Positions 15,554-59,484 of a stretch of 64,000 nucleotides of DNA are shown here, piece after piece (position 1 is the stretch's first letter; the number at the start of each line of letters is the position of its first letter). The position numbers and the translations under genes are program-made. The stretch spans positions 1 to 64,000 of the forward strand of contig CAXHJY010001145.1 in the NCBI GenBank assembly GCA_964016885.1, written 5' to 3'. Source of the stretch: Eledone cirrhosa (taxonomy: Eukaryota). The notes beneath the pieces were generated by a model, which had not been told where the DNA came from, did no database searches, and saw only the letters and a list, made by a program, of their open reading frames with translations.

Positions 15554-16324
15554 ATGGCGACGAGATTACGAATGAGCGAAGTGATTAGGGCATTTACCGG
15601 TGAAGGCGATGTTGTCGCTTGGCTGCGAAAAGTCCGGCTGGTCGCAAGCTTACAGAAGATAGAAGATGTGGCTGGCCTCATGGCACTATACCTCGAGGGG
15701 GGGGGGGTGGTGCGTTGGCACTCTTCCTAGAGATGGATGAACACAGCCAAAGGGATGCGCAAAAGATTGAGAGGCGCATGGTGGGAGCGTTCGCGGAGGA
15801 ACCGTTAGCCGCTTTTGCTAAGCTGGCAAGAATTAGATGGAACGGTGAACGCCTTGAAATTTTCGCAGCGGAAATACGGCGATTGGCCATGTTGGCTGGA
15901 TATCAGGTGGAATGCTAACGCACGGTGCGGTTGGCATTCATAAATGGATTTCCAGACGACATAACGGTAAAACTGCAGCAAGTCCCGGGTTACAAAGAAA
16001 TGGAGATGCGTGCACTGGTGGAGCAAGCCCGCATCATAGCAGAAGATGCCAAGAAGAGTGTCGCGGCGATAGCAATTACAGAGGCCCCGAGGCAGCTGGC
16101 AGCGAAATGGTGAAAGGGAGGCAACCACGACACGCGGTCGCCCGCGAACGTTTAGAGGTCGCTGTTTTAGGTGCCAGGGCCCGCACATGGCGAGAGACTG
16201 TAGAGAGTCAAGGCCGGAAAAAATATGCTACCGGTGTAAGCGACCAGGCCACATCGCTACTAGCTGCGACCAGGGAAACGATCCAAGGGGAACTACTGCG
16301 CCGGTAGTTGCCCCTTACGAGTAG
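15554..16324 (+). pseudogene. gag: gag with two zinc knuckles
   Basis: MATRLRMSEVIRAFTGEGDVVAWL..; CFRCQGPHMARDC and CYRCKRPGHIATSC; frameshift at the poly-G near 15697 and internal stops. Confidence 0.85.
16273..16316 (+). promoter_or_regulatory. Programmed -1 ribosomal frameshift signal (gag to pol)
   Basis: G GGA AAC heptamer in the gag frame, 5-nt spacer, hairpin AAGGGG-AACTAC..GTAGTT-G-CCCCTT; the -1 frame is open into the protease ORF at 16330. Confidence 0.85.
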
Positions 16325-19115
16325 AGGCGTTGCCCGTGGTGGAAGTCTTCGTGAGGGGAAAGCCACAGCGAGCCCTCGTGGACACGGGCTGTACGACGAC
16401 ACTGGTGACCGCGGGGGTGGCGCAGAGGTGGAGAGGGAAGAGCAGCATAAGGGCAGTCGACGGTAGGAAAATTGAATGCCGAGGTCGCAGCGAGATGGAG
16501 ATGGCGGTACGGGGAAAGAAAATAAGGCGTTCTGCCATCGTAGTCGACAACGTGGTGGATGGGATCGGCGTAGTTATGGGCATGGACGCAATTGGCCGTC
16601 TAGGAGGCGTCACAGTGAACAACGTCGGTGTGTCGTTTGGCGGCGCCGCATCGGTATGCGCTGTGAGTACGCGACAGGAGAACCAGAAGGCCCACGAGGA
16701 GAAATACCCCGCTTACACTGTGCAGGACAAAGACTTCAAGGCCGTGTTCGATGGGAAACGATGGGTTGTTGGGTGGTACTGGAAGGGAGAACCACCAACA
16801 CTGAAGACCAAAGTGGGCTGCTATCAACACACATTGAAGAGACATTAGGAGCGAGTTCGAGCGAGAGGTAGATGGATGGATTGAGGAGGGTATACTGCTT
16901 CCCTGGAAAGAGGAGGTGAAGTGCGGAGTATTGCCATTAATGGCGGTGGCGCAACCCACGAAGAACAAGGTGAGGCCGGTACTGGACTTTCGGGAGCTGA
17001 ACGAGCACATGTCATGCCACACGGTTGGCGAGGTCACGGATGTCTGTGGAGAAACCCTGCGTGAGTGGAGACGCATGACGGGGGCTTCCGCAATCGTCGA
17101 TCTAAAGTCGGCATACTTACAATTACACATAGAAGAGAAGCTCTGGCAGTATCAGCTGGTCAGGTATAAGGGCCAGACATATTGCCTGACCAGGCTCAGT
17201 TTCGGGCTGAGCTCTGCACCGAAGATCATGGCAGCGGTACTCAAGACCATTCTGGGAAAGCCGACAAGATGAAGAGGGCCACTAATTCCTACATTGACGA
17301 CATCCTAGTGGACGAGTCTGTAGTGTCGGCGGCGGAGGTCACGAGCCATTACAGGGGTATGGACTGGCTGCGAAGCCGTCAGAAGCGTTGGAGGAGGAGC
17401 CGCGCTGGGACTTAGGCTACGGCGAGACAGGACGGGCGTCTTAGTATTCCAGAGGGGAAATGAAGTTCCAGAACTGGGCCCAAGTATGAGTAGGCGGGAG
17501 CTTTTCTCGGCGTGTGGAAAGCTGGTGGGTCACTACCCGATTGCTGGGTGGCTCCGGACGGCATGCAGCTATGTCAAGAGACCTCCGGCGGGGTGACTTG
17601 GAGTGACAGAGTGGGAGAGAGGACGGTGGCTATGATGCAGGAGATAGTGGAGAGGGTGAAGGCCAACGACCCAGTGCGGGGACGCTGGTATGTTCCCAAA
17701 TCGCAGAGCAGGACCGTATGGTGCGATGCCAGCAACATAGCGCTGGGTGTCACGTTGGAGATAGGAGGTGTTAAGGTCGAGGATGCAGCCTGGCTTAGAA
17801 GGACGATTGCAACCACATCAATGTGGCCGAACTGGACGCGGTGTTGAGAGGGGTGAACCTCGCCCTGAGGTGGGGACTGCGCACCATCGAGATATGCACC
17901 AACTCGGCTACTGTACTCGGATGGGTGAGATCAGTGCTCACCAGTGAGAAGAGAGTGCGAACGAGAAGGGTGGCGGAGATGCGGATAAAGCGCCGCCTGG
18001 GAACTTTAGGAGAGCTGGCCACCGAGTTCGACCTGAGGCTGAGTGTAGTTTTCGTGCCCTCAGAGAAAAATAGGGCGGACGTTTTAACCAGGGTGAAGAA
18101 AGCCTGGATGGAAGCGCCGGAGGAGGTAGAAGAGGAGATAGCTGCAAGTGTGTTGGCTGACCGAGTCGGATCTGAAATGGTTGCATGACATGCACCACAT
18201 GGGAGTGGATAGGACTCTGTTCCTAGCCAGGAGAATCGACTCGGATGTTAACAAGCACAGTGTTCAAAGAGTGGTTAGAGGCTGCGTCCGATGTCAGTCC
18301 ATTGATCCCGCCCCGGGTGGGCACGAAATGGGAAGCCTCCCAGTGGATCGCGACTGGAAGCGATTGGCGGTGGATGTAACACACTACCGACAGGGAACAT
18401 ACCTCTCAATGGACGACTGTGGACCGGGACGGATGGCGATATGGAGGGAGATGAAGACTGGAACGGCCGAGGAAATCACGCGGACGTTGAGAGAGGTGTT
18501 CTTGGAGCGGGGCCCTGTGGACGAACTGCTGATGGACAACAGCGCAGCTTTTCGCTTGGAGGCGCCGCTGAGGGAGATGCTCTATGGATGGAAGGTGGAC
18601 CGTTTCTTCAGAGCAGCGTACAGGCCGAGCGGAAATGGAATCGTAGAGCGACACCACCGGACGATCAAAGCAATGGCGGAGCGGGGCCACATCTCACCAA
18701 TGGAGGCAGTGTTCTGGTACAACATGTCTCCTCGGGTGAGACAGGTTGAGGAATCGGTGCCACACAGAGCAGTATTCAGATACGAGTGGCGGCACCCGTG
18801 CATGCCACCACAACAGCCAGTGGAGAGAGAGAATGCATTCGTCCAGGTGGGCGAAGAAGTCTGGGTTAAGCTCCCAGATGCACGTTGCACATCTCAATGG
18901 GGAAGGGGAACGGTGACGGCCGTAAATTCCCAGAACAATGTGTCCGTGGACGGAGTACCACGTCATGTCCTGGATGTCCGTAGAATCACTGTGTCAACGG
19001 ACTCCGAGGAAGAGGAAACCCAAAGTGCCGCCCCAACAATGCGGAGATCGCAAAGAAGTCGCAAACCACCAACCTGGACAGCAGACTTTCATATGCAGAA
19101 GGACGAGGGGTGGCG
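16279..19115 (+). pseudogene. pol: pol: protease, RT, RNase H, integrase (disrupted)
   Basis: ALVDTGC; RPVLDFRELN, VDLKSAYLQL, SFGLSSAP, SYIDDILV; WCDAS..HINVAELDAV; H..H..C..C, VDVT, MDNSAAF, GNGIVERHHRTIK; several stops and frameshifts. Confidence 0.93.
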
Positions 19116-19494
19116 TGTGAGTATGGTGTGGTGTGCGGTGGCCGGAGGCTGGGGAGTGCTCGACCGGAACAGTGCTTGACCGGAAGGGTGCTTGCCGGAA
19201 GGATGCTCGACCGGAAGGGCCAGCAGGTCGGTCTCTCTCTAGGGTGATCAGCGAACGTGGTGGACGTCAGTTTTGCAGCTCCCGGTTAACGAGTTGGATT
19301 GTACGCACGTGGGAGAGGAGAAACCAGCCATTGGATTAGCGGCGCCTGCGAAAGCGGTCAGTGAAGTAGCTTTTTCTAACCACAATGTTAAGACCCCCCT
19401 TCCTGCTATATCAAGCGTTAGCCTAATATATCCCTTCCATATACTGTACCGATTGTGTTGTTATTTCTGTTAACTTTTACATACATACATACAT

Positions 19495-22272: not shown

Positions 22273-22394
22273 TAATATATATATATATATATATATGAAT
22301 GAAATCATTCCGTCGGAAAGGTACAGGAAAAAAGAGTGCTCTATGTAGGTTACAGAGCTTATTAGTTATGTAATAAACAACATAAGATAATTAT

Positions 22395-22452
22395 TTCATT
22401 TACCAATGGTTTCTTGAAAGCAAATAAATCTGCTTTCAGTCGTCAGAATGAA
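22395..22452 (-). ncRNA. Hammerhead, family B
   Basis: Reverse complement of the 21735 motif with intact core. Confidence 0.85.
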
Positions 22453-22569
22453 TAAAACATGGTGTTTTTATTAAATGTGGATTTGAAAACAAAAATATAA
22501 GAAATATGAAAGTGAGGCTGCGGAAACAACGAGCAAAGAAGAAAAAAAGAATTATATATATATATGTAT

Positions 22570-22664
<95 letters not shown>

Positions 22665-22955
22665 TATATATAAAATAAATAAATAAACAAACATACACAC
22701 ACACGACCACGCGCATATACTTAAAAAATAAGCTGTCACATAAGCGTATATGTATCAACCGGCATGGACAAATACATACATATACGTGAAGTAATAAGAA
22801 TAAATAAATAAATGAATAAGAACAAAAAATATTCAAAGTCAATATATATATATAATTCTTTTTTTCTTCTTCGTTCGTTGTTTCCTCAGCCTCACTTTCA
22901 TATTTCTTATATTTTTGTTTTCAAATCCACATTTAATAAAAACACCATGTTTTAG

Positions 22956-23011
22956 TCATTCTGACGACTGAAAGCAGATTTATTTGCTTTCAAGAAACCA
23001 CTGGTAAATGA
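22956..23011 (+). ncRNA. Hammerhead, family B; head-to-head with 22395-22452
   Basis: TCATT-CTGACGA-..-GAAA-CCACTGG-TA-AATGA; arms 22365-22560 and 22850-23045 are inverted. Confidence 0.85.
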
Positions 23012-23308
23012 AATAATTATCTTATGTTGTTTATTACATAACTATATATATATATAGTCAGAGAGAGAGAGAGAATAGGGAGATGATGATAGAGAGAGAG
23101 AGAGAGAGATAGGGAGAGAGAGACAGAGAGAGAATAGGGAAATGGTGATAGAGAGATGATATGTAATAGAATAAGAGTCAGAAAACTAAGAGAAAGGGAA
23201 CTAGTGAGACATAGAGAAAGAAAGACCCACACCAAGAAAGAAAGAGGCAGAGGTAAGGAAGAGAAGTAAATTTAAACAATGTCTGTTTGTAGGACCGATT
23301 ATCCATTA

Positions 23309-27258: not shown

Positions 27259-27502
27259 GTAATTTTACAATCATTAATTGTTTCTACCTTTGGCACAAGG
27301 CCAGCAATTACCCAGTACATTACTGGTACTTTATTTTATCGACCCCGTAAGGATGAAAGGCAAAGTCAACCTCGGCGGGATTTGACTTTGCTTTTCATTC
27401 TTACGGGGTCGATAAAATAAAGTACCAGTAATGTACTGGTTTATTGCTGGCCTTGTGCCAAAGGTAGAAACAATTAATGATTGTAATTTTACAATCATTA
27501 AT
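27259..27502. mobile_element. Fold-back SINE insertion with 20-bp TSD
   Basis: Minus-strand SINE 3' half, then its inverted copy; TSD GTAATTTTACAATCATTAAT at 27259-27278 and 27483-27502. Confidence 0.9.
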
Positions 27503-28515: not shown

Positions 28516-28543
<28 letters not shown>

Positions 28544-28546
<3 letters not shown>

Positions 28547-29017
28547 CGATATTAACAAATGGAAACTATATTTATAAAACCATATTTATTTCATTATACA
28601 TATTTCAAGGACACCAAGTTAAATTATGGTGTGCTTTCATCAGATAAAATATAATATAGAGCAGTTTTCTAAATAAATATTGACATACCCTTAAAGAATG
28701 CAACCATTACTGTTGGAAGCTCCCGGATAGTTATCCGGATAGCTGTCCGGGAGCTTCCAACAGTAATGGTTGCATTCTTTAAGGGTATGTCAATATTTAT
28801 TTAGAAAACTGCTCTATATTATATTTTATCTGATGAAAGCACACCATAATTTAACTTGGTCTCCTTGAAATATGTATAATGAAATAAATATGGTTTTATA
28901 AATATAGTTTCCATTTGTTAATATCGTATTTTTACTCCAATTATTTGTTGAGAGCTTTATATCAGTTATAAAAATATTTGCTTGTTGTATCCCAACAATT
29001 TAATTAGAACTTTTACA
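28544..29017. mobile_element. Head-to-head palindromic pseudo-LTR pair, family A; hammerheads at 28588-28650 (-) and 28823-28885 (+)
   Basis: 28544-28929 is a near-perfect palindrome; ATTTTAT-CTGATGA-AAGCACACCA..TGGTCTCCTT-GAAA-TATGTA-TA-ATGAAAT. Confidence 0.85.
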
Positions 29018-38500: not shown

Positions 38501-38930
38501 AGAGCACACACACACACACACACACACACACTGCTTAACTCATCAATACACTCCAACCTGTGGCCCTTAGACATACTATCTCTTCTGTTTTTTTTTTTAC
38601 TTATTATGGCCTCTGCTCATCTAAATTGACTTGTCTTATGTCACTTCCACCTAGGCTCGCCCTACACACTTATATTTCCTCTTTGTCACCCATACTCTGT
38701 CTACATCTCTCCGCCCCCATCCTCTATACTAATCAGGATTCTTGAAGTTTACAAGGTTTACTGTGGTAACAAACAGTGCCCCTTACATGTTCAGGCAGCC
38801 TTTCAGTTAAATTGCATGGTGTGTAAGGCCTATCAAAAATGTTATTGATTTGCGTTAACCTTGTATTCTATAAGTGTTAAACTAATATACCATAATTGTA
38901 TTGTATTGTTCTCTGGTACTGTTTTTGATT

Positions 38931-39322
38931 TGGTGAATTGGCAGTATCGGTAGAGGGTCGGACGCCATGCTTTGCAGCATAGTTACGTCCCTTTACGGTC
39001 TGAGTTCAAATCCCGCCGAGGTTAACTTTGCCTTTCATCCTTACTGGGTCGATAAAATAAAGTACCAGTAATGAACTGGGTAATTGCTGGCTTTGTGCCA
39101 AAAGTAGAAACAATTATTATTATTAACACCATTATTGGTGGTGGATTGGCAGTATTGGTAGAGGGTCGGACGCCATGCTTTGACGCATAGAGTTACGTCC
39201 CTTTACGGTCTGAGTTCAAATCCCGCCGAGGTTAACTTTGCCTTTCATCCTTACGGGGTCGATAAAATAAAGTACCACTAATGCACTGGGTAATTGCTGG
39301 CCTTGTGCCGAAAGTAGAAACA

Positions 39323-39361
<39 letters not shown>
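38931..39361 (+). mobile_element. Two tandem SINEs; the second has a long (ATT)n tail
   Basis: Copies at ~38931-39120 and ~39137-39325, then (ATT)n to 39361. Confidence 0.9.
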
Positions 39362-42300
39362 GTGCTGAATCTCTCGAGACGTGTGTAACTACGACGGAGT
39401 AAGTCAGTTAAAATTTATTGGTTTATTGAAACTGTTATATAGTAATTTTTACATTTTTGTCTAGCTAAAGAACCCCTCTTTCAAAGGAGGTGGTTTTTTA
39501 ACTGTATCTCGCGTCTTTAAGGGCTGAATTTGTATTTATTTATTTACAATCATACCCCACAATTTTTTGTTTTAAAAAAAACATGGCGGACGGAAAAATT
39601 GTCCACAGGGAGGAACAGCGGGTTGGTTGTCCGGAGGGAGGGTAGGGTGGGGGGCAGAGGGGCAGCCGATTCTGTCCAATCACAAGGCAGAAACAAGAAC
39701 AACAGCAGCAGTCACAGTGGCAGCGGCGGTGACAACAGCAGCAGCAGCAGCAGTAGCCACTTGAACAGTAGCAGCAGCAGCGTAGCGTCAAACTACCACA
39801 AACATTCCCCGACATTAGAAAGATCAACAGGCACCACCTCCACTTCCACCTTAATAACAACAGCAGCAACAGCCATAAAGAACCCAGGGAGCAACAACTG
39901 TAACAGCAGCAACACATGAAAAAAAACAAACTAACAAGACCACCATCACCAACAACAACAACAACAACAGCAGCAACAAAGGCAAGACTAGCGATGAGTC
40001 AGCACAACAGGCGGAAACGACATCGTTTGCGAAAGCAGCAAAAAATGTAGAACAAGTACACATTAGCAACATGGAGATAAAGCAAGCCAAGATCTTGGTT
40101 AAAAAGACCGGACACAGGGTAAGTCTCACTCACCCAGCTAATATATTGAAAAACAAGCGTTTGTGTTCGGTCAGTTATCGCACAATTGGATTAAAAGCAA
40201 ACGGCAATGGAGTCGCAGGTCCAAAGGGCTATGGGTGCCGTCTGGGCACAAAAAACATACATAGCCAGAGGATCGAGGTATGGCACTGTGGACGTGCTCT
40301 TCGCTACACCGGAAGAAGCCAGAGCACACTCCATTGTGCCACTCCGCAGTGACGAAATAATAATGATGCCTACATACTGCGGCCAGAGAGTTTTGAGGGT
40401 TCCAGTAACCCAGGTTCCGTCCTCAGTGGAGATCGCGTACACGATGGTAGCCATCCTCACTGACGTCGAGGATTCAACAACTATTCTCGACGTCATGCAG
40501 ATAAGACAGGAGAATTGGACAGGGTTGGGGATGGAGCTAACTTCCATCCTCGATGTGATAGACCTGGATGACGGTAGCCATCTACCCGTGACTGTCGAAG
40601 GTAGGTGCCCAAGGTGTCATGGGTGCGGTGATGGGACGCACCTTAAGGCCTTCTGCCCCAAACTCAACAAAACGAGCACGCGCTCCTCCCTTCTCCCTAC
40701 GCCATGTCCCACGACTGGAGTGGACAAACCAACCATGACCACAGTGGCAGAAGAAAAATTACCAGCACCAACAACAAAATCACCATCTCCTCCACCACCA
40801 ACAGAACCAATGGAGAGCTTGCCCCTTCCCGATATTGCTAAATCGGACAAGGAGTGCGATGAGGCTGAAGGATGGAAAAACCATCCCGGCCCCCAAAAAT
40901 TCAACACCACACCAACATCACAGAAACAAACTACGTATATACCACCAAAATTGCACCCCCAGTCTATGCCCCAACAGGAGCAGGACGGCCTGACTTCTTC
41001 CAGCGTCTTTCTTGGAACGTCCCGCTCTTTAGTGTTAGTGGGTGACTGGAACGGGATCTTAGATGCACGCTGGGACTGTGTGGGATTAGCAGATAGGGGA
41101 GGCGGGTGTAAAAGCCTCGCAAACCTGCTCAGACGTTTTCAACTGTCTGACAGGTACCATTTGGATTTCCCAAATGTGCCAATGTGGACTTGGACAAACT
41201 GTATCGGGTCATCCAGATCATATCTAGATAGGGTATTTTGTAGGAAATAGATAGGTCTAGCATAGGCTGTCCACAATTCAAGATAGTTGACTACACAGAC
41301 CACAAATTCATGATCTGTGTGGTTGACTTAGCTAGGCTTCATAGGCAGGGATTCGGCTACTGGAAGCTAAACGTGTTGTTAACAGCGCGCAAAGCTTACA
41401 GAGACCAGATTTGCGAATTAGTTAAGTGGCCATTGACGGGGGCCATTGTCAACAACAAATGGTGGTTTGCCCTGAAAAGAGCGTTTAGAATAGAGTCCAT
41501 TAGGTTTAGTAAGGCGTTAGCAATAGAGAAAAATAGAGCAGAGGGAGAACTAGTTAGAAAATTAGATGAGGCGCTTAGTAAAGGCATCATGACCGACGTG
41601 CTTGCAGCGAAATTGGCCCTCAACCAATTTTTCAATTTAAAGCACGAAGGCTGCGTTGTCAGAGCTAGGGCGCATGCTCTCAGACGTGAGGGGACGAAAG
41701 CCGTTTGATGGGACTGAGTGGCAGAGGAGCATTATGGCAGCAAACCATGATCTGGTCTTTTTGCGGACCACGATGGCCGCATGTTACTTGATCACGGGCA
41801 AATGTGTGCGGCTTTTCAGCGACACTTCAGGGGGCAGCAGCGGGCCGGATTGCAGGATGGACTTTAGTGCCTACCTTGACAGACTGCCACGGCTCTCAGC
41901 CACTGAGGCGGAGTGTTGCGAAAAGCTGATAACAGCCGCCGAAGTACGGGAGGCAATGACTGGCTGCACAATGGGTAAATCGCCTGGTTTGGATGGTCTG
42001 CCCTACGAACTTTACGTACGCATGCCAGACTTGTTCGGCGACCTCTTGGTGGACGTCTACTGCAACTGGCAGCAGAACGGGACAATTCCCAGCTCTGTGA
42101 GCCAAGGAGCGGTGGCGCTGCTGAGAAAGGATCCGAACAAGGGGGATAACATAGATAATTTCAGACCCATAACTCTGCTAAACACGGAGTTCAAGATTTT
42201 GGCCAAGGTGCTAGCAAAGAGGTTGGCGCTTATGATCGATGGTCTGGTGGGAGAGGTGTAAACATGCGCCGTTCTAGACAGATCCATCCACGACAACCTG

Positions 42301-44230
42301 CACCTCATGCAATACATCGTGGAGAGGGTAGCTAGGGAACCAACCTGACATGGGTGGGTCCTTGATCAATTTAGATCAGTCTAAAGCTTTCGATTGAGTC
42401 AACCATCGTTATCTGGCAGCAGTCCTGAGGGTGGCTGGCTTTAGGCCCGTCTTCAGAGTCTGGATGGCTGCCATGCACAGCGACATCTGCTCTGTGGTGA
42501 GAGTGAACGCTCACCTTTCGGAACTGTTCAACATCATGGGCTCGGTCCGCCAAGGACGTCCCCTCTCAACCATGTTGTATGTATTGACTCTTGAGCCATT
42601 ACTGCACAAACCGGAGATGTTGAGGGGTGGGTGGGGTGGGTGGAGGGGGTCCCGTGCGAACTGGGATGCAGAAGAACCGTGTCAGCATATGCCGACGATG
42701 TCACCGTAGTGGTGTCGAGCGCCAAACACATCGAGGCGATCGGCACTACACTAAGAGAATAGGAGGCGGTGACAGGAGCAATGATCAACCAGGAAAAGTC
42801 ACTGGGCCTGCAGCTCGACATCTGGAGAGGCAGCTTCTTGCCGTCCAACAGCGTCGTCGGGCGCTGAACGGACGGACCGGTTAAATTGCTAGGGGTCTGG
42901 TTCAGTCCAGACCTCTAGACGGACAAAAACTGGGAGGAGGTAACGATCAGGGTGGCTTCTCTCACCCAGAAATGGGCAGAGAGGAAGCTATCCCTGAAAG
43001 GTCAAGTGGAGGTGGTGAATGCGTACATCGCGTCCATCATCTACTACTGCCTGACCGTCGGGCCTTGTCCTAAGCCTCGCCTGACTGCACTGAAGCATTT
43101 GCTCTTTCGCTTTTTGTGGAAGGAACGTGCTCCAATGGTCAGGCGGTCCATCTGCTGTCAACACCCGCTACGTGGAGGGCTGGGCATGACGTGCTGATGA
43201 TGTGCAGACACGCGCTCAGGCTACGACATCTCCACCTCTTCCTCGACGGTGATCATGAGTGGTTGCCGTTTGTTAGACGCGTGTTTCCCCAGCTCATCTC
43301 CTTGACAGAGTTGCAGTCCTGGGTCAAGTGGAGACTGAGAGGGAGTGCTTGGAGACTAGAATGTCTTCAGGCGCTTACAGCCCTTGACCAGTCGGGCAAT
43401 GCGATCGGTGGAAACTCCACCTTGTCGTTCTATAGAGGATTAGTGGAGGGGAAGAGCGACGACGTACTTGGGGAAACTCTAGGCGTCGATGAAAATCAAC
43501 TAGCCAATCTCTTCGGGAGAACTTTAGGGCCGGGGCCTATGGACAACTTCCAGAAATCCCTGGCCTGGCAGTGATACCGAAGAGCTTTGCCAGTTTTGGA
43601 TAAACTCTACAGGCATGGAAGTGCCATCAGCCAGGCATGTCCGAGATGTGTGCAGGGCTATGAAACCGTCCTGCATGCACTTGTCCAATGTCCGAGCATT
43701 GCTGACTTGTGGGATCCGGCTATCAGAAGGGCAGGAAGTTTGTATGTGTCTGGTGGCCATAGCGAAACAGATAGTGTGGTGGATGCATTTGAAAGGGCTG
43801 AAGACGAGCACTTACATCTTCGGTGATGCCCTGATTATCTTTTCAAATATCATTTGAAAAGGAAAATCAGAGTAGAGAGCGAAGTGCTCTCTTCCCAGCA
43901 TTTTGTTGAAAGATGGGTGAGAGAGGCAAGAATGGCCCGAGTGAATGGGCCTACTCTGAGTATGCGCCTGTAAATTGAAGGTGGAAAACTGGGAGAGGGC
44001 ACTTGCCCTGGTGGTCAGGGTCACCATGGCTTTTTTAATGGGCTTTCTCCATGAATGTCCCTCGGAAGTCTCCCCCCTATTGGGGAATTTTTCATTGTTT
44101 CTTTTTTTGTTACATCCTGTTTTTGTTTTTTTACACACAAAAATGCTCATTTGTACCATCCTGTATTGTCCTTAATGTTTTACTTTGTGTCAACCCTTGT
44201 GGTTAGTAAAGAAAGCATTATTATTATTAT
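39362..44230 (+). mobile_element. L1/Tx1-like LINE, near full length with an internal deletion, decayed
   Basis: ORF1 remnant with CHGCGDGTHLKAFC knuckle; APE motifs LVGDWN, TWTN, SYLDR, TDHK; RT motifs KSPGLDGLPYELY, FRPITLLNTEFKILAK, DQSKAFD, VRQG.PLS, AYADDV; C-terminal CPRC..HALVQC; stop 43971-43973; (ATT)n on both sides. Confidence 0.93.
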
Positions 44231-44231
44231 C

Positions 44232-45820
44232 ATGCGCTTGGTCTGTCAGGGTTGTCCCCTCTCGTCACTCTCGGACGTATTGGCCCTAGAGCCGTTACTG
44301 CACAAATTGGAGGCAATGAGAGACGTCCCGCGCGAACTGGGATGTGGGAGACCCGTATCAGCTTACGCCGACGACGTCACCATGGTGGTGTCAAGCGCCA
44401 GACATGTCCAGATGCTCGGCACCGCTCTCAAGGAATATGAAGCAGTGACAGGAGCAAAGTTAAACCTGGAGAGGCAAGTCCATGCTACCCGACTGCGTCA
44501 CCTGGAGAGGCTAGTCCATGCCACCCGACAGCATCGTGGGGCGCTGGACGGAAGAATCGGTTAAATTGCTGCGGGTCTGGTTCGGTCCGGACCTGCAGAT
44601 GGAGAAAAACTGGAGTGAGGTGATGAACAGGGTGGCCTCTTTCACCCAGAAATGGGCTGAGAGGAAGATATCTCTGAAAGGTCGGGCAGAGGTGGCGAAT
44701 GTATTCCGGCCCAACTCTGACAAAAATGGAGTGCCTCCTCTTCCGGAAAGGACGTGCTCCCATGGTCAGATGATCGATCTGCTGTCAATACCTGTTGCGT
44801 GGAGGGCTGGGCATGCCATGGCTGATGATACGCAAACACACGCTGAGTCTGCGATATCTCTGGTGCTTCCTTGACGGTGAACAGGTGTGGTCACCGTTTG
44901 CCAGACGTGTTTTTCCCCAGCTTGTCTCATTAACGGAGTTGCAGTCCTGGATCAGGAAAAGACCGAGGGATAGCGTTTGGAAGCTGGAATGTCTCCAAGC
45001 GCTCACAGCCTTCTACCAACTGGGCACTAGTATTGGTGGAACATCCACTTCGGCGTTCTATAGAGGACTAGTGGACAACTTCTAAAAATCCCTGGCCTGG
45101 CAGTGCTACCGGGGAGCGCTGCCGGTTCGAGATAAGCTCTACAGGCATGGAAGTGCCGTCAGCCGAACCTGTCTGAGATGTACACAGAGCGACGAAACTG
45201 TTGTGCATGCATTGGTTCAGTGTCCGAGCATTGCTGACTTGTGGAACTATGTCGAACATTTGCTGTCATGTGTAGGATGGATCCGGTTATCGACTGAGTC
45301 CTTTAAGGAGGAGGAAGGGCAGGCAGTTTTCATCTGCCTGGTGGCCATGGCGAAAGAGATTGTATGGTGGACAAGGTTGAAAGGGTTGAAGGCAGACACT
45401 TTCCTCTTCGGCGAATCCTTGATTAACTTTTTCAAATTTCACTTGAAGAGGAAAATCAGGGTGGAGGGACAAGTGCTGTCTTCAAATAAGTTTGTTGAAA
45501 GGTGGGTGAAAGTGGTGAGTCTGGTCCGAGTGAACAGGCCTGCTCTGAGTATGCGTCTGTAGATTGAGGAGTGGAAAACTGAGAGAGGGCGCTTGCCCTG
45601 GTGGTCAGGGTGGCCGTGGTCTTTTGTGTGGTTTTCGCCACGAGTGACCCTCGGAAGTTTCCCCCCTATTGGGGAATTTTTTGTCGTTTGAATTTTTTTG
45701 ATATTTCTATCTTGTTATAACCTTTTTACACGTCCTGTACCGTTCTGTGCCATCTATAATGTTTTTCTTCATGTTAGCCCTTGTGTCGAATAAAGAAACC
45801 ATTATTATTATTATTATTAT
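44232..45820 (+). mobile_element. Second, 5'-truncated L1/Tx1-like LINE in tandem
   Basis: Starts at QGCPLS..AYADDV immediately after the (ATT)n tail of the first copy; ends AATAAAGAAACC(ATT)n. Confidence 0.92.
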
Positions 45821-46433
45821 CATATATATATATATATATATTATACGTCCATTTTCCACACTTGTTTGGGTTAGATGGCTCATCAAGTTATGAGACAAGA
45901 TGGGTCAGGAGATAGTCTTGCTCATACAGACTTGTATTTTGACTTAGTTTCTATAGTTGGATGCCCTTCTTAACACCAATCAGATTTCAGTATGGATTGG
46001 GTGCTTTTTATTGTGGCATATATATATATATAATTATTATTATTATTATTATTATACTTTGAGAAGGTCATGCTGCCAATAAAAACACACACGCACTTGT
46101 TGGTTTCCACTTCAATTTATTATAAATTTCCGGTTGGTTGGTTGGTTGGCTAACCGGATGGTTGTTTATATATTGTCAAAGTTCTTTCGTCACACATCCT
46201 GTGACTTCCTCAGTGACTGTGTTTTTTATGTTGTGTCTCTCCTTTGTTCTGCCCTACACCATCTTATTTTTGTGTGTTGTGTGCTTAGTTTGTGCATGTG
46301 TTACACCCGTGTGTGTGTGTGTTTTTATTTATGTATTTACTTGTCACTAGTTGGTTGGTTGTTCTATCTCTATGTATCTGATTTTCTTTATTAGTTTAGT
46401 TTTTGTGTGTGTCTGTATGTCTATATTTTGTCT

Positions 46434-56918: not shown

Positions 56919-57420
56919 AAGTCCTCTGTTAGTCCCCTTCTACTCATGTGATGTCACTCCCCCAGACTTCATGTAAGTCCTCTGCTAGTCCCCTTCTGCT
57001 CATGTGATGTCACTCTCCCAGACTTCATGCAAGTCCTCTGCTAGTCCCCTTCTACTCATGTGATGTCACTCTCCCAGACTTCATGCAAGTCCTCTGCTAG
57101 TCCCCTTCTACTCATGTGATGTCACTCTCCCAGACTTCATGCAAGTCCTCTGCTAGTCACCTTCTACTCATGTGATGTCACTCTCCCAGACTTCATGCAA
57201 GTCCTCTGCTAGTCCCCTTCTGCTCATGTGATGTCACTCCCCCAGACTTCATGCAAGTCCTCTGCTAGTCCCCTTCTGCTCATGTGATGTCACTCCCCCA
57301 GACTTCATGCAAGTCCTCTGCTAGTCACCTTCTACTCATGTGATGTCACTCTCCCAGACTTCATGCAAGTCCTCTGCTAGTCCCCTTCTACTCATGTGAT
57401 GTCACTGCTCCCAATACTTC
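56919..57420. repeat. 56-bp minisatellite, about 9 copies
   Basis: Unit AAGTCCTCTGCTAGTCCCCTTCTACTCATGTGATGTCACTCTCCCAGACTTCATGC. Confidence 0.95.
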
Positions 57421-58445: not shown

Positions 58446-58830
58446 AAAGTTATATTTAATTTGTTGGGATTCAACAAGCTTAAAAGTTTTATAACTGATA
58501 TAAAGCACTCAACAGTTTACTGGAGTAAATATTCAATATATTAATAAATGGAAACTATATTTATAAAACCATAATTATTTTATTATATATATTTCAAGGG
58601 CAACCAAGGCAAATTTTGGTGTGCTTTCATCAGATAAAATACAAAATTTGTTTCATAAATGTTGACATACCCGCAGAAGAACAACCTTGACGGTTGGAGG
58701 TTCGCTGTATTCGATATATTTTATTTTATCTGATGAAAGCGCACCAAAATTTGCCTTGGTTGCCCTTGAAATATATATAATAAAATAATTATGGTTTTAT
58801 AAATATAGTTTCCATTTATTAATATATTGT
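58441..58830. mobile_element. Head-to-head family A pseudo-LTR pair; hammerheads at 58577-58640 (-) and 58723-58786 (+)
   Basis: ATTTTAT-CTGATGA-AAGCGCACCAA..TTGGTTGCCCTT-GAAA-TATATA-TA-ATAAAAT, with perfect stem I and core. Confidence 0.88.
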
Positions 58831-58840
58831 ATATATATAT

Positions 58841-59288
58841 ATGTAGAAGTTATATTTAATTTGTTGGGATACAACAAGCAAATATTTTTATAACTGATAT
58901 AAAGCACTCAACAAATTTTTGGAGTAAAAATACAATATATTAACAAATGGAAACTATATTTATAAAACCATATTTATTTCATTATACATATTTCAAGAAC
59001 ACCAAAGCAAATTATGGTGCGCTTTCATCAGATAAAATATAATATAGATCAGTTTTATAAACAAATATTGACATACCCTTAAAGAATGCAACCATGTCGG
59101 TTGACTATCTGGGAGATTCCAACCGACATGATTGCATTCTTTAAGGGTATGTCAATATTTGTTTATAAAACTGATCTATATTATATTTTATCTGATGAAA
59201 GCGCACCATAATTTGCTTTGGTGTCCTTGAAATATGTATAGTGAAATAAATATGGTTTTATAAATATAGTTTCCATTTGTTAATATAT
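58841..59288. mobile_element. Head-to-head family A pseudo-LTR pair; hammerheads at 58976-59038 (-) and 59185-59247 (+)
   Basis: Inverted arms around a short centre near 59110. Confidence 0.88.
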
Positions 59289-59484
59289 TATATATAAAGG
59301 TATGCAGCCTAGTAGTTAGAGGTTTGGGCTGTCCTCTGTTTGATTCCTGGACCACAGAGTATATAATGTTCTTGAGCAAACTATCTTGGGAAAAGTCTTG
59401 TTCTTTCAGTTGCTTAAGGCTAATGAAACCGGGATAGACTCCAGCCCCATGAGTCACCAAGCTTGAGACAGACCTTAACATATT

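What the first reader, a model, noticed from the sequence alone, without database searches (positions are those of the whole stretch)
39295..45806. Dominant SINE and the L1/Tx1-like LINE share a 3' tail: candidate SINE-LINE partnership
SINE end TGCTGGCC-TTGTGCCGAAAGTAGAAACAATTATT (39295-39328) aligns with LINE end TGTTAGCCCTTGTGTCGAATAAAGAAACCATTATT (45772-45806). The first LINE ends similarly (CCCTTGTG..AAAGAAAGCATTATT). Both terminate in (ATT)n, not poly(A), and the SINE TSDs of 10-20 bp fit an L1-type endonuclease. Established: many SINEs borrow the 3' tail of their partner LINE, mostly in L2/CR1/RTE clades, while mammalian L1 recognises poly(A). Inference: this Tx1-like family mobilises the SINE by tail recognition.
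Basis: partly seen in the sequence, partly recalled or inferred. Interest (0 to 1): 0.75.

Follow-up and report, generated by a model that had tools for sequence, protein, structure and literature searches.

The report
Octopod SINE carries Tx1 LINE tail
The most abundant short jumping element found in this octopus-like genome ends in the same roughly 30-base signature as its Tx1-type long jumping genes and no other long element examined, so it is likely copied by their enzyme, a pairing I did not find described for animals in the papers searched.

Summary
The last ~30 nt of the dominant ~190-nt SINE match the L1/Tx1-type LINE tails: same five-base loop, 16 nt from the terminal repeat, 19-20 of 30 bases ungapped. 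All 8 Tx1-type tails outrank all 9 CR1, RTE and R4 tails. SINE insertions carry ~16-bp duplications starting at ATTAT (39 of 61 random copies); Tx1-type copies make 13-19-bp ones, the CR1 that also ends in (ATT)n mostly none (3 of 27). Ages overlap. Corrections: (ATT)n is not diagnostic and is largely target sequence; the match is short; the hairpin is not unusually stable; the youngest, intact Tx1 subfamily matches the young SINE worst; Tx1 copies sit in long ATT runs while SINEs mostly do not. Best reading: Tx1-group proteins likely copy the SINE by recognising its tail (0.68); no binding or mobilisation was tested. I found no animal SINE with a Tx1/L1-derived tail in 8 paper searches. This scan already reported the same pairing on another piece of this genome (e1-9580941).

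The parts
38930..39112 (+). SINE copy A (young short subfamily S1), 5' end slightly short
39136..39322 (+). SINE copy B (S1): head with A- and B-box-like motifs (consensus recalled), central domain not assigned, tail
   Evidence: no tRNA or Rfam match
39293..39322 (+). SINE tail shared with Tx1-type LINEs; predicted hairpin with stem 39299-39301/39307-39309 and loop 39302-39306, 16 nt before the ATT repeat
39323..39361 (+). (ATT)13 run; end of SINE B and landing site of LINE1
   Evidence: nesting inferred from order and from 5' flanks of 17 of 20 full-length Tx1-B copies
39362..44216 (+). LINE1, decayed L1/Tx1-type element: 5' region, broken ORF1 (40% aa identity to young B ORF1), internal deletion near 40960, ORF2 remnant from aa ~176 (89% nt to young B, stops and frameshifts), 3' UTR
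   Evidence: 5' boundary inferred from the end of the ATT run, no homologous 5' end was found
44187..44216 (+). LINE1 tail (B-type stem), loop 44196-44200, 16 nt before the ATT repeat
44217..44233 (+). Left copy of the 17-bp duplication of LINE2; it includes LINE1's ATT end
44234..45800 (+). LINE2, 5'-truncated Tx1-type subfamily A copy (RT end, zf-RVT, 3' UTR), inserted in LINE1's ATT end
45771..45800 (+). LINE2 tail, loop 45780-45784, AATAAA at 45789-45794; two substitutions against the family majority break the stem in this copy
45801..45823 (+). (ATT)6 plus right copy of the duplication (45807-45823)

Best explanation
The SINE ends in the same ~30-nt tail as the genome's L1/Tx1-type LINEs, and it is likely copied by their ORF2 protein, which is predicted to recognise a small hairpin in that tail. 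Shown: the shared loop, its distance from the terminal repeat, the absence of this tail in 9 other LINE tails, the 13-18-bp duplications starting at ATTAT, and overlapping ages. Inferred: an ancestral SINE took its tail from a D/E/A-like Tx1 element by template switch; the SINE is transcribed by Pol III from its head; ORF2p binds the loop, nicks AT-rich DNA at C/T|ATTAT, and the RNA's AUU end pairs with the nicked strand to prime reverse transcription; a second nick ~16 nt away gives the duplication. Differences between SINE and LINE cluster in the LINE's AATAAA, which a Pol III transcript would not need (inference). The SINE's short AUU end would let it land at isolated ATTAT sites, whereas LINE transcripts with longer AUU ends favour ATT runs (inference, untested).
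For:: Tx1-type tails take ranks 1-8 of 17 for both SINE subfamilies (scores 12-27 for S1, 18-27 for S2); CR1, RTE and R4 tails score 0-6, within their shuffles; the tail motif is kept across Tx1 subfamilies whose ORF2 C-termini are only about 56-78% identical to B, with stem pairs changed on both sides (G-C in A and D, A-T in B; read by eye); minimum-energy folds of S1, S2 and all 8 Tx1 majority or single-copy tails close a loop at the same place. SINE duplications, median 16 bp (IQR 13-18, n=65); ATT start followed by A in 55 of 56 and preceded by C in 27 of 56 (background 25%, p=1.4e-4). Tx1-type duplications at non-repetitive sites of 13, 17 and 19 bp (subfamily G) and 17 bp (LINE2); CR1-A 3 of 27, RTE 2 of 12. 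S1 median 4.5% from majority (n=82); TxA 4.9, TxA2 3.6, TxD1 3.3, TxD2 4.6, TxB 3.3. The older S2 matches B better than S1 does (20 against 12). Precedent for loop recognition with exchangeable stems: PMC4176376 (passages).
Against: The match is ~30 nt at 63-67% identity, shorter and weaker than bivalve SINE-LINE pairs (35-61 bp, 72-95%; PMC11481361 passages). The hairpin has 3-4 pairs in the SINE and is no more stable than shuffles (z +0.5 to +0.9). The young intact subfamily B matches S1 only weakly (12 of 500 shuffles reach it). Targets differ: 22 of 30 consecutive B copies are followed by >=6 ATT units and 17 of 20 full-length ones are preceded by >=6, but only 2 of 61 random SINEs have >=4 on the left. 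Duplications of the ATT-ending Tx1 subfamilies could not be told from controls (A 4 of 22 and 5 of 15; B 10 of 15 and 4 of 9; D 3 of 9), because they lie in ATT runs or have damaged 5' ends. The LINE survey covers ~2 Mb of 3 Gb; L2, Nimb/I, Hero or Rex1 families were not seen and cannot be excluded. LINE age samples are biased to best hits.
Confidence: 0.68

Rival explanations
1. The tail came from Tx1 long ago, but the present mobiliser reads only the AUU end (relaxed recognition by Tx1, or the young CR1-A), so the hairpin is a relic.
For: SINE and Tx1 tails differ in a third of positions; hairpin unremarkable in energy; CR1-A is young (about 1% in a biased sample), has intact ORFs and ends in (ATT)n; SINEs use short ATT sites.
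Against: CR1-A leaves no duplication in 24 of 27 copies; its tail scores 2; loop and spacing are unchanged between S2 (17% diverged) and S1 (4.5%) although S1 lost ~29 nt just upstream.
Confidence: 0.15
2. An unsampled LINE family (L2, Nimb/I, Rex1, Hero, or an extinct Tx1 branch with relaxed targeting) carries the exact SINE tail and is the true partner.
For: Survey limited to ~2 Mb; SINE target spectrum is wider than that of the ATT-ending Tx1 subfamilies; no Tx1 subfamily is an exact match.
Against: In 654 kb, all 12 near-exact tails (up to 4 differences) without a detected SINE core had SINE sequence or unique DNA upstream, none a LINE 3' UTR, read by eye; RT fragments in 854 kb fell only into Tx1, CR1, RTE and R4 groups (the queries came from these same groups). 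An extinct Tx1 branch would still support the Tx1 link.
Confidence: 0.12
3. The likeness is chance or convergence on AT-rich ends next to a shared ATT target.
For: Short match; the last third is A-rich; both elements pile up in the same ATT runs.
Against: 0 of 500 shuffles and no non-SINE, non-Tx1 background site reach the score of subfamilies A and E; the terminal repeat was left out of the score; ATCT-ending Tx1 subfamilies, which do not share the target, also match (13-24).
Confidence: 0.05

Closest known systems
Stringent SINE/LINE pairs with a 3' stem-loop (UnaSINE/UnaL2; ZfL2-1 and ZfL2-2; PMC4176376 passages, PMC3747384 passages and Table 1 part 1)
   Same: Short shared tail, predicted hairpin with a constant loop and changeable stem, simple-repeat end
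   Different: Partner is L1/Tx1-type, not L2/CR1/RTE; hairpin smaller; no experiment here
[quoted passage not shown]
   Same: SINE tail shared with an L1-clade LINE
   Different: Those are plant and algal; this is an animal, with a microsatellite-targeting element and an ATT end
Crocodilian SINEU with Tx1-Mar (PMC4494074 passages)
   Same: SINE proposed to be moved by a Tx1 element; shared target preference, concurrent ages
   Different: For SINEU-1 no LINE sharing the 3' terminus was found and SINEU ends in poly(A); here the link is the tail itself, and target sharing is only partial
Kibi (TC)n, Koshi (TTC)n and crocodilian Tx1 on (TTCC)n/(TTTC)n (PMC4494074 passages)
   Same: Microsatellite-targeting two-ORF element with APE endonuclease; head-to-tail stacks
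   Different: Targets are (ATT)n and, in sister subfamilies, (ATCT)n; no tree with named Tx1 references was built
Octopus SINEs OK, OR1, OR2 (Ohshima and Okada 1994; seen only as citations in PMC4824008 and PMC4758252)
   Same: tRNA-type retroposons of octopus
   Different: Sequences not seen; whether this SINE is one of them was not tested

Membership tests
L1-group non-LTR retrotransposon | Two ORFs; ORF2 with APE endonuclease, RT and C-terminal zinc motif | tested here: met
   Intact B copies: ORF1 ~700 aa, ORF2 1204 aa stop to stop; Exo_endo_phos, RVT_1, zf-RVT over cut-off
L1-group non-LTR retrotransposon | ORF2 closest to L1 among characterised elements | tested here: met
   Best PDB match human L1 ORF2p E 1e-52, R2 1e-21; the PDB holds few LINE clades
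Tx1 clade | RT phylogeny groups with Tx1/Keno/Kibi/Koshi | not tested
   No named Tx1 reference was returned; the label Tx1 rests on recalled knowledge and on targeting
Tx1 clade | Target preference for a repeated sequence | tested here: met
   17 of 20 full-length B copies preceded by >=6 ATT units; 22 of 30 followed by >=6; ~6.05-kb tandem stacks
tRNA-derived SINE | Short, dispersed, non-coding, high copy, flanked by duplications | tested here: met
   168 core hits in 854 kb; duplications
tRNA-derived SINE | [quoted passage not shown] | tested here: inconclusive
   Box-like motifs seen by eye against a recalled consensus; ARAGORN and Rfam found nothing
MetaSINE / V-SINE / CORE-SINE | Conserved central domain | tested here: not met
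   By eye no likeness to BivaMeta/BivaMD or BivaV and no clear likeness to BivaCORE alignments in the supplement of PMC4824008; Deu/Nin sequences not seen
Stringent SINE/LINE pair | Shared 3' terminal sequence | tested here: met
Stringent SINE/LINE pair | Conserved stem-loop with compensatory changes | tested here: inconclusive
   Same loop in predicted folds, double changes by eye; energy no better than shuffles; the pair table was mis-registered and a corrected count was not obtained
Stringent SINE/LINE pair | Same insertion signature | tested here: inconclusive
   Duplication length and ATT start fit; ATT-run length at the target differs
Stringent SINE/LINE pair | Concurrent activity | tested here: met
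   LINE samples biased to best hits
Stringent SINE/LINE pair | Tail needed for mobilisation or bound by ORF2p | not testable with these tools
   needs a retrotransposition or binding assay

The most novel reading that the evidence does not exclude
Animal L1-group (Tx1) retrotransposons still read a specific 3' hairpin, the state proposed as ancestral before mammalian L1 relaxed to poly(A). A SINE that took this hairpin escaped its partner's microsatellite targeting through a short AUU end and so reached several hundred thousand copies; target choice would then be set partly by the RNA tail, not the endonuclease alone.
Probability: 0.3. Interest if true: 0.72.

Novelty: new variant of a known kind. 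Interest (0 to 1): 0.52.

Why it matters
SINEs are a leading repeat class in octopus genomes (11.6% of O. vulgaris, PMC13282606 passages), and I found no partner LINE named for them. A Tx1 partner with a shared hairpin would name the engine of that expansion. It would also give an animal case of stringent recognition in the L1 group, where only three plant and algal pairs were listed (PMC3472496). Thousands of young Tx1 copies, many with intact ORFs (4,830 exact B tails), make the test practical, and SINE and LINE with different target spectra allow one to separate the role of RNA tail and endonuclease.

Tried and rejected
CR1-B as partner: one copy resembled the SINE stem, but most of 25 copies carry an extra 10-nt segment, end in another repeat and lie in (TA)n. 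R4/Dong: ends in (AAT)n, the opposite strand, tail score 0-2. RTE families: end in (ATG)n, (TG)n or (AT)n, tail scores 0-5, few duplications. A SINE subfamily with a long LINE-like tail: one candidate (L043) proved to be a 5'-truncated Tx1-G copy nested in an old SINE; a genome-wide pattern gave 5 matches, all a SINE followed by a nested Tx1 end. MetaSINE identity, my first guess from memory, was rejected. Extension of the match upstream of 30 nt in the old SINE: suggestive with D/E subfamilies but gap-rich and not convincing. Rfam and ARAGORN: nothing real. A DNA search with the B tail returned nothing although the query is itself in the genome, presumably because common words are skipped. 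No RNA holder was listed, so poly(A) addition and the RNA 3' end are unknown. Not obtained: a corrected stem-pair table and a block-by-block comparison of tail versus upstream 3' UTR conservation. Rows dropped: L057 from the SINE alignment (mis-extracted); 39 of 194 S1 and 19 of 44 S2 tails with indels or no readable end before the majority was taken; LINE copies without a 5' boundary inside the locus before duplication counts. PMC4795812 is not held; the html supplement of PMC4824008 was unreadable; main-text figures with Meta, Deu and CORE alignments are not held; Repbase and SINEBase could not be searched.
Full report
Setting. The window is the start of a small contig of a 3.0-Gb genome. 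The nearest named relative of the LINE protein is from Argonauta hians (73% identity), so the host is likely an octopod. All comparative DNA came from this genome: about 790 kb of evenly spaced stretches plus the window, and some 250 loci chosen by searches.

Anatomy of 38930-45823. Two SINE copies lie head to tail, followed by (ATT)13, a decayed 4.85-kb LINE (LINE1) and a 1.57-kb 5'-truncated LINE (LINE2) with a 17-bp duplication that includes LINE1's ATT end. The stack is best read as successive insertions into ATT runs (inference). LINE1 has an ORF1 only 40% identical to that of the young B subfamily, an internal deletion near 40960 and an ORF2 remnant 89% identical to B. Both window LINEs carry stops and frameshifts.

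The SINE. About 190 nt, 168 core matches in 854 kb, roughly 590,000 copies by plain extrapolation, of which about 290,000 are the short subfamily S1. Of 276 core matches in all loci then held, 194 were S1, 44 an older and ~29-nt longer S2, 6 had another tail and 32 were unassigned. The head has A- and B-box-like motifs (recalled consensus); the central domain did not match the bivalve Meta, V or CORE alignments I could read, so its superfamily is left open.

The LINE group. Intact copies are 6.03 kb with two ORFs; ORF2 has APE endonuclease, RT and zf-RVT and is closest to human L1 ORF2p among solved structures. At least ten subfamilies can be told apart by their tails: A, A2, B, D1, D2, E and H end in (ATT)n; C, F, G and I end in (ATCT)n. 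B is young: 4,830 exact tails, many 1204-aa frames and head-to-tail stacks at ~6.05-kb spacing. The name Tx1 rests on this targeting and on recalled knowledge; no tree with named references was made.

Is the tail match real? Yes. With the terminal repeat left out, the majority tails of S1 and S2 agree with subfamily A at 19 and 20 of 30 ungapped positions. Eight Tx1-type tails take ranks 1-8 among 17 LINE tails; nine CR1, RTE and R4 tails score no better than their shuffles (eight of the 17 are single copies and one rests on 4). Subfamilies A and E are reached by 0 of 500 shuffles, B against S1 by 12 of 500. Among 3,493 background sites the only higher scores were degenerate SINE tails. The agreement lies in a five-base loop, the pairs closing it and the last six or seven bases; the disagreement is concentrated in the LINE's AATAAA. 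Against D2/E the SINE reads as the same stem with one C-G pair removed (by eye). Predicted folds close the loop at the same place in both SINE subfamilies and all eight Tx1 tails, but the three window tails fold no better than shuffles, and LINE2's own copy has lost the stem by two substitutions.

Is (ATT)n evidence? Little. A young CR1 family with a 945-aa ORF ends in (ATT)n as well. In SINEs the run is two units at the median and coincides with the start of the duplication, so it is mostly target or microhomology.

Insertion signature. SINE duplications of >=10 bp: 76 of 120 full-length copies against 34 of 358 controls; in random stretches alone 39 of 61, median 16 bp. The target reads C/T|ATTAT; C precedes it in 27 of 56 and G in none. 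CR1-A shows 3 of 27, at least one of them an artefact of a tandem repeat, and RTE 2 of 12. Tx1-G copies at non-repetitive sites show 13, 17 and 19 bp, and LINE2 17 bp. For A, B and D the counts were at or near control level because the copies lie in ATT runs or have damaged ends. The main mismatch with the model: B is followed by >=6 ATT units in 22 of 30 consecutive copies, whereas 2 of 61 random SINEs have >=4 units on the left. Three of nine truncated B copies do sit at short ATT sites, so the difference is one of degree.

Ages. S1 lies 4.5% from its majority (IQR 2.7-6.9, n=82, unbiased), S2 17% (n=27); A, A2, B, D1 and D2 lie at 3.3-4.9%, R4 at 5.6%, CR1-A and CR1-B at about 1% or less. 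The LINE samples are biased to best hits, so this shows overlap only.

Mechanism. Most likely target-primed reverse transcription of the SINE RNA by Tx1 ORF2p, recruited through the tail hairpin, with the AUU end pairing at a nick in ATTAT. The model borrows from ZfL2, where the loop is read specifically and stems can be swapped (PMC4176376, passages). Shown here are sequence, spacing, duplications and ages; binding, transcription and mobilisation are inferred. I put Tx1-group mobilisation with tail recognition at 0.68, relic tail with relaxed or CR1 mobilisation at 0.15, an unseen partner at 0.12 and chance at 0.05.

Comparison with print. Ohshima's survey lists 58 pairs with only three L1-tailed SINEs, all plant or algal (PMC3472496 passages; PMC3747384 passages and first part of section 21). 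SINEU is tied to Tx1-Mar by target and age without a shared 3' end (PMC4494074 passages). Bivalve SINEs use CR1, CR1-Zenon, L2 and Nimb (PMC11481361 passages; PMC4824008 and PMC4758252 passages). Cephalopod repeat surveys name L1-Tx1 and SINEs but no partner in the passages read (PMC8967140, PMC13282606, PMC10294476). PMC5786205 and PMC5381603 were read as passages. Eight searches gave no animal SINE with a Tx1/L1 tail; Repbase, SINEBase and subscription papers were not searchable, so the pair may be on record there.

Verdict. A real, short, family-level tail match that points to Tx1-type LINEs as the SINE's partner: a new variant of a known kind, interest 0.52.

Noticed in passing
L205-L224; G000:C1 179.63 Mb and 234.59-234.62 Mb: Young Tx1-B copies form head-to-tail stacks of 3-5 at ~6.05-kb spacing by inserting into each other's ATT ends; many ORF2 frames are intact.
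   Followed up: partly
L276-L294: Sister Tx1 subfamilies end in and target (ATCT)n while keeping the same tail hairpin; several copies are only ~100 bp long.
   Followed up: partly
window 39362-40960: LINE1's 5' region and ORF1 differ strongly from young B (40% aa) while its ORF2 is 89% nt identical: possible 5' replacement or recombinant.
   Followed up: partly
L120-L149, L225-L244: Very young CR1 family (945-aa ORF, ~99% identity between copies) ending in (ATT)n without duplications; elements reach at least 4.9 kb.
   Followed up: partly
L150-L174: Second young CR1-type family whose 3' ends nearly all abut (TA)n-type runs.
   Followed up: partly
L016, L027, L080, L330-L357: R4/Dong elements occupy the same ATT/AAT runs in the opposite orientation, often tail to tail with Tx1 copies.
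   Followed up: no
L096, L091, L100, L102, L121, L148: Old SINE subfamily (S3) with the same core but a different, longer tail; its partner was not sought.
   Followed up: no
window 27275-27476: Two 5'-truncated SINE copies back to back forming a near-perfect inverted repeat, with a further short inverted flank.
   Followed up: no
window 7721-9586: 621-aa open frame of a Penelope-like element (label recalled from its features; no Pfam hit), 98% aa identical to a copy in L061, so likely young; an older relative lies at 2580-3964 on the minus strand.
   Followed up: partly
window 16264-19179: Decayed LTR-type (Gypsy-like, by eye) protease and integrase frames.
   Followed up: no
window 22363-23044 and 28539-28934: Long inverted repeats (203 and 198 nt arms, 97-98% complementary), MITE-like; the second has copies at 58755-59307.
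   Followed up: no
window 56919-57413: 56-bp minisatellite, about 9 copies at 96% identity.
   Followed up: no
Tx1 3' UTRs, e.g. window 44072-44087 and 45661-45676: A second short C-run/G-run inverted motif ~130 nt before the end recurs in most Tx1 subfamilies; the SINE lacks it.
   Followed up: no
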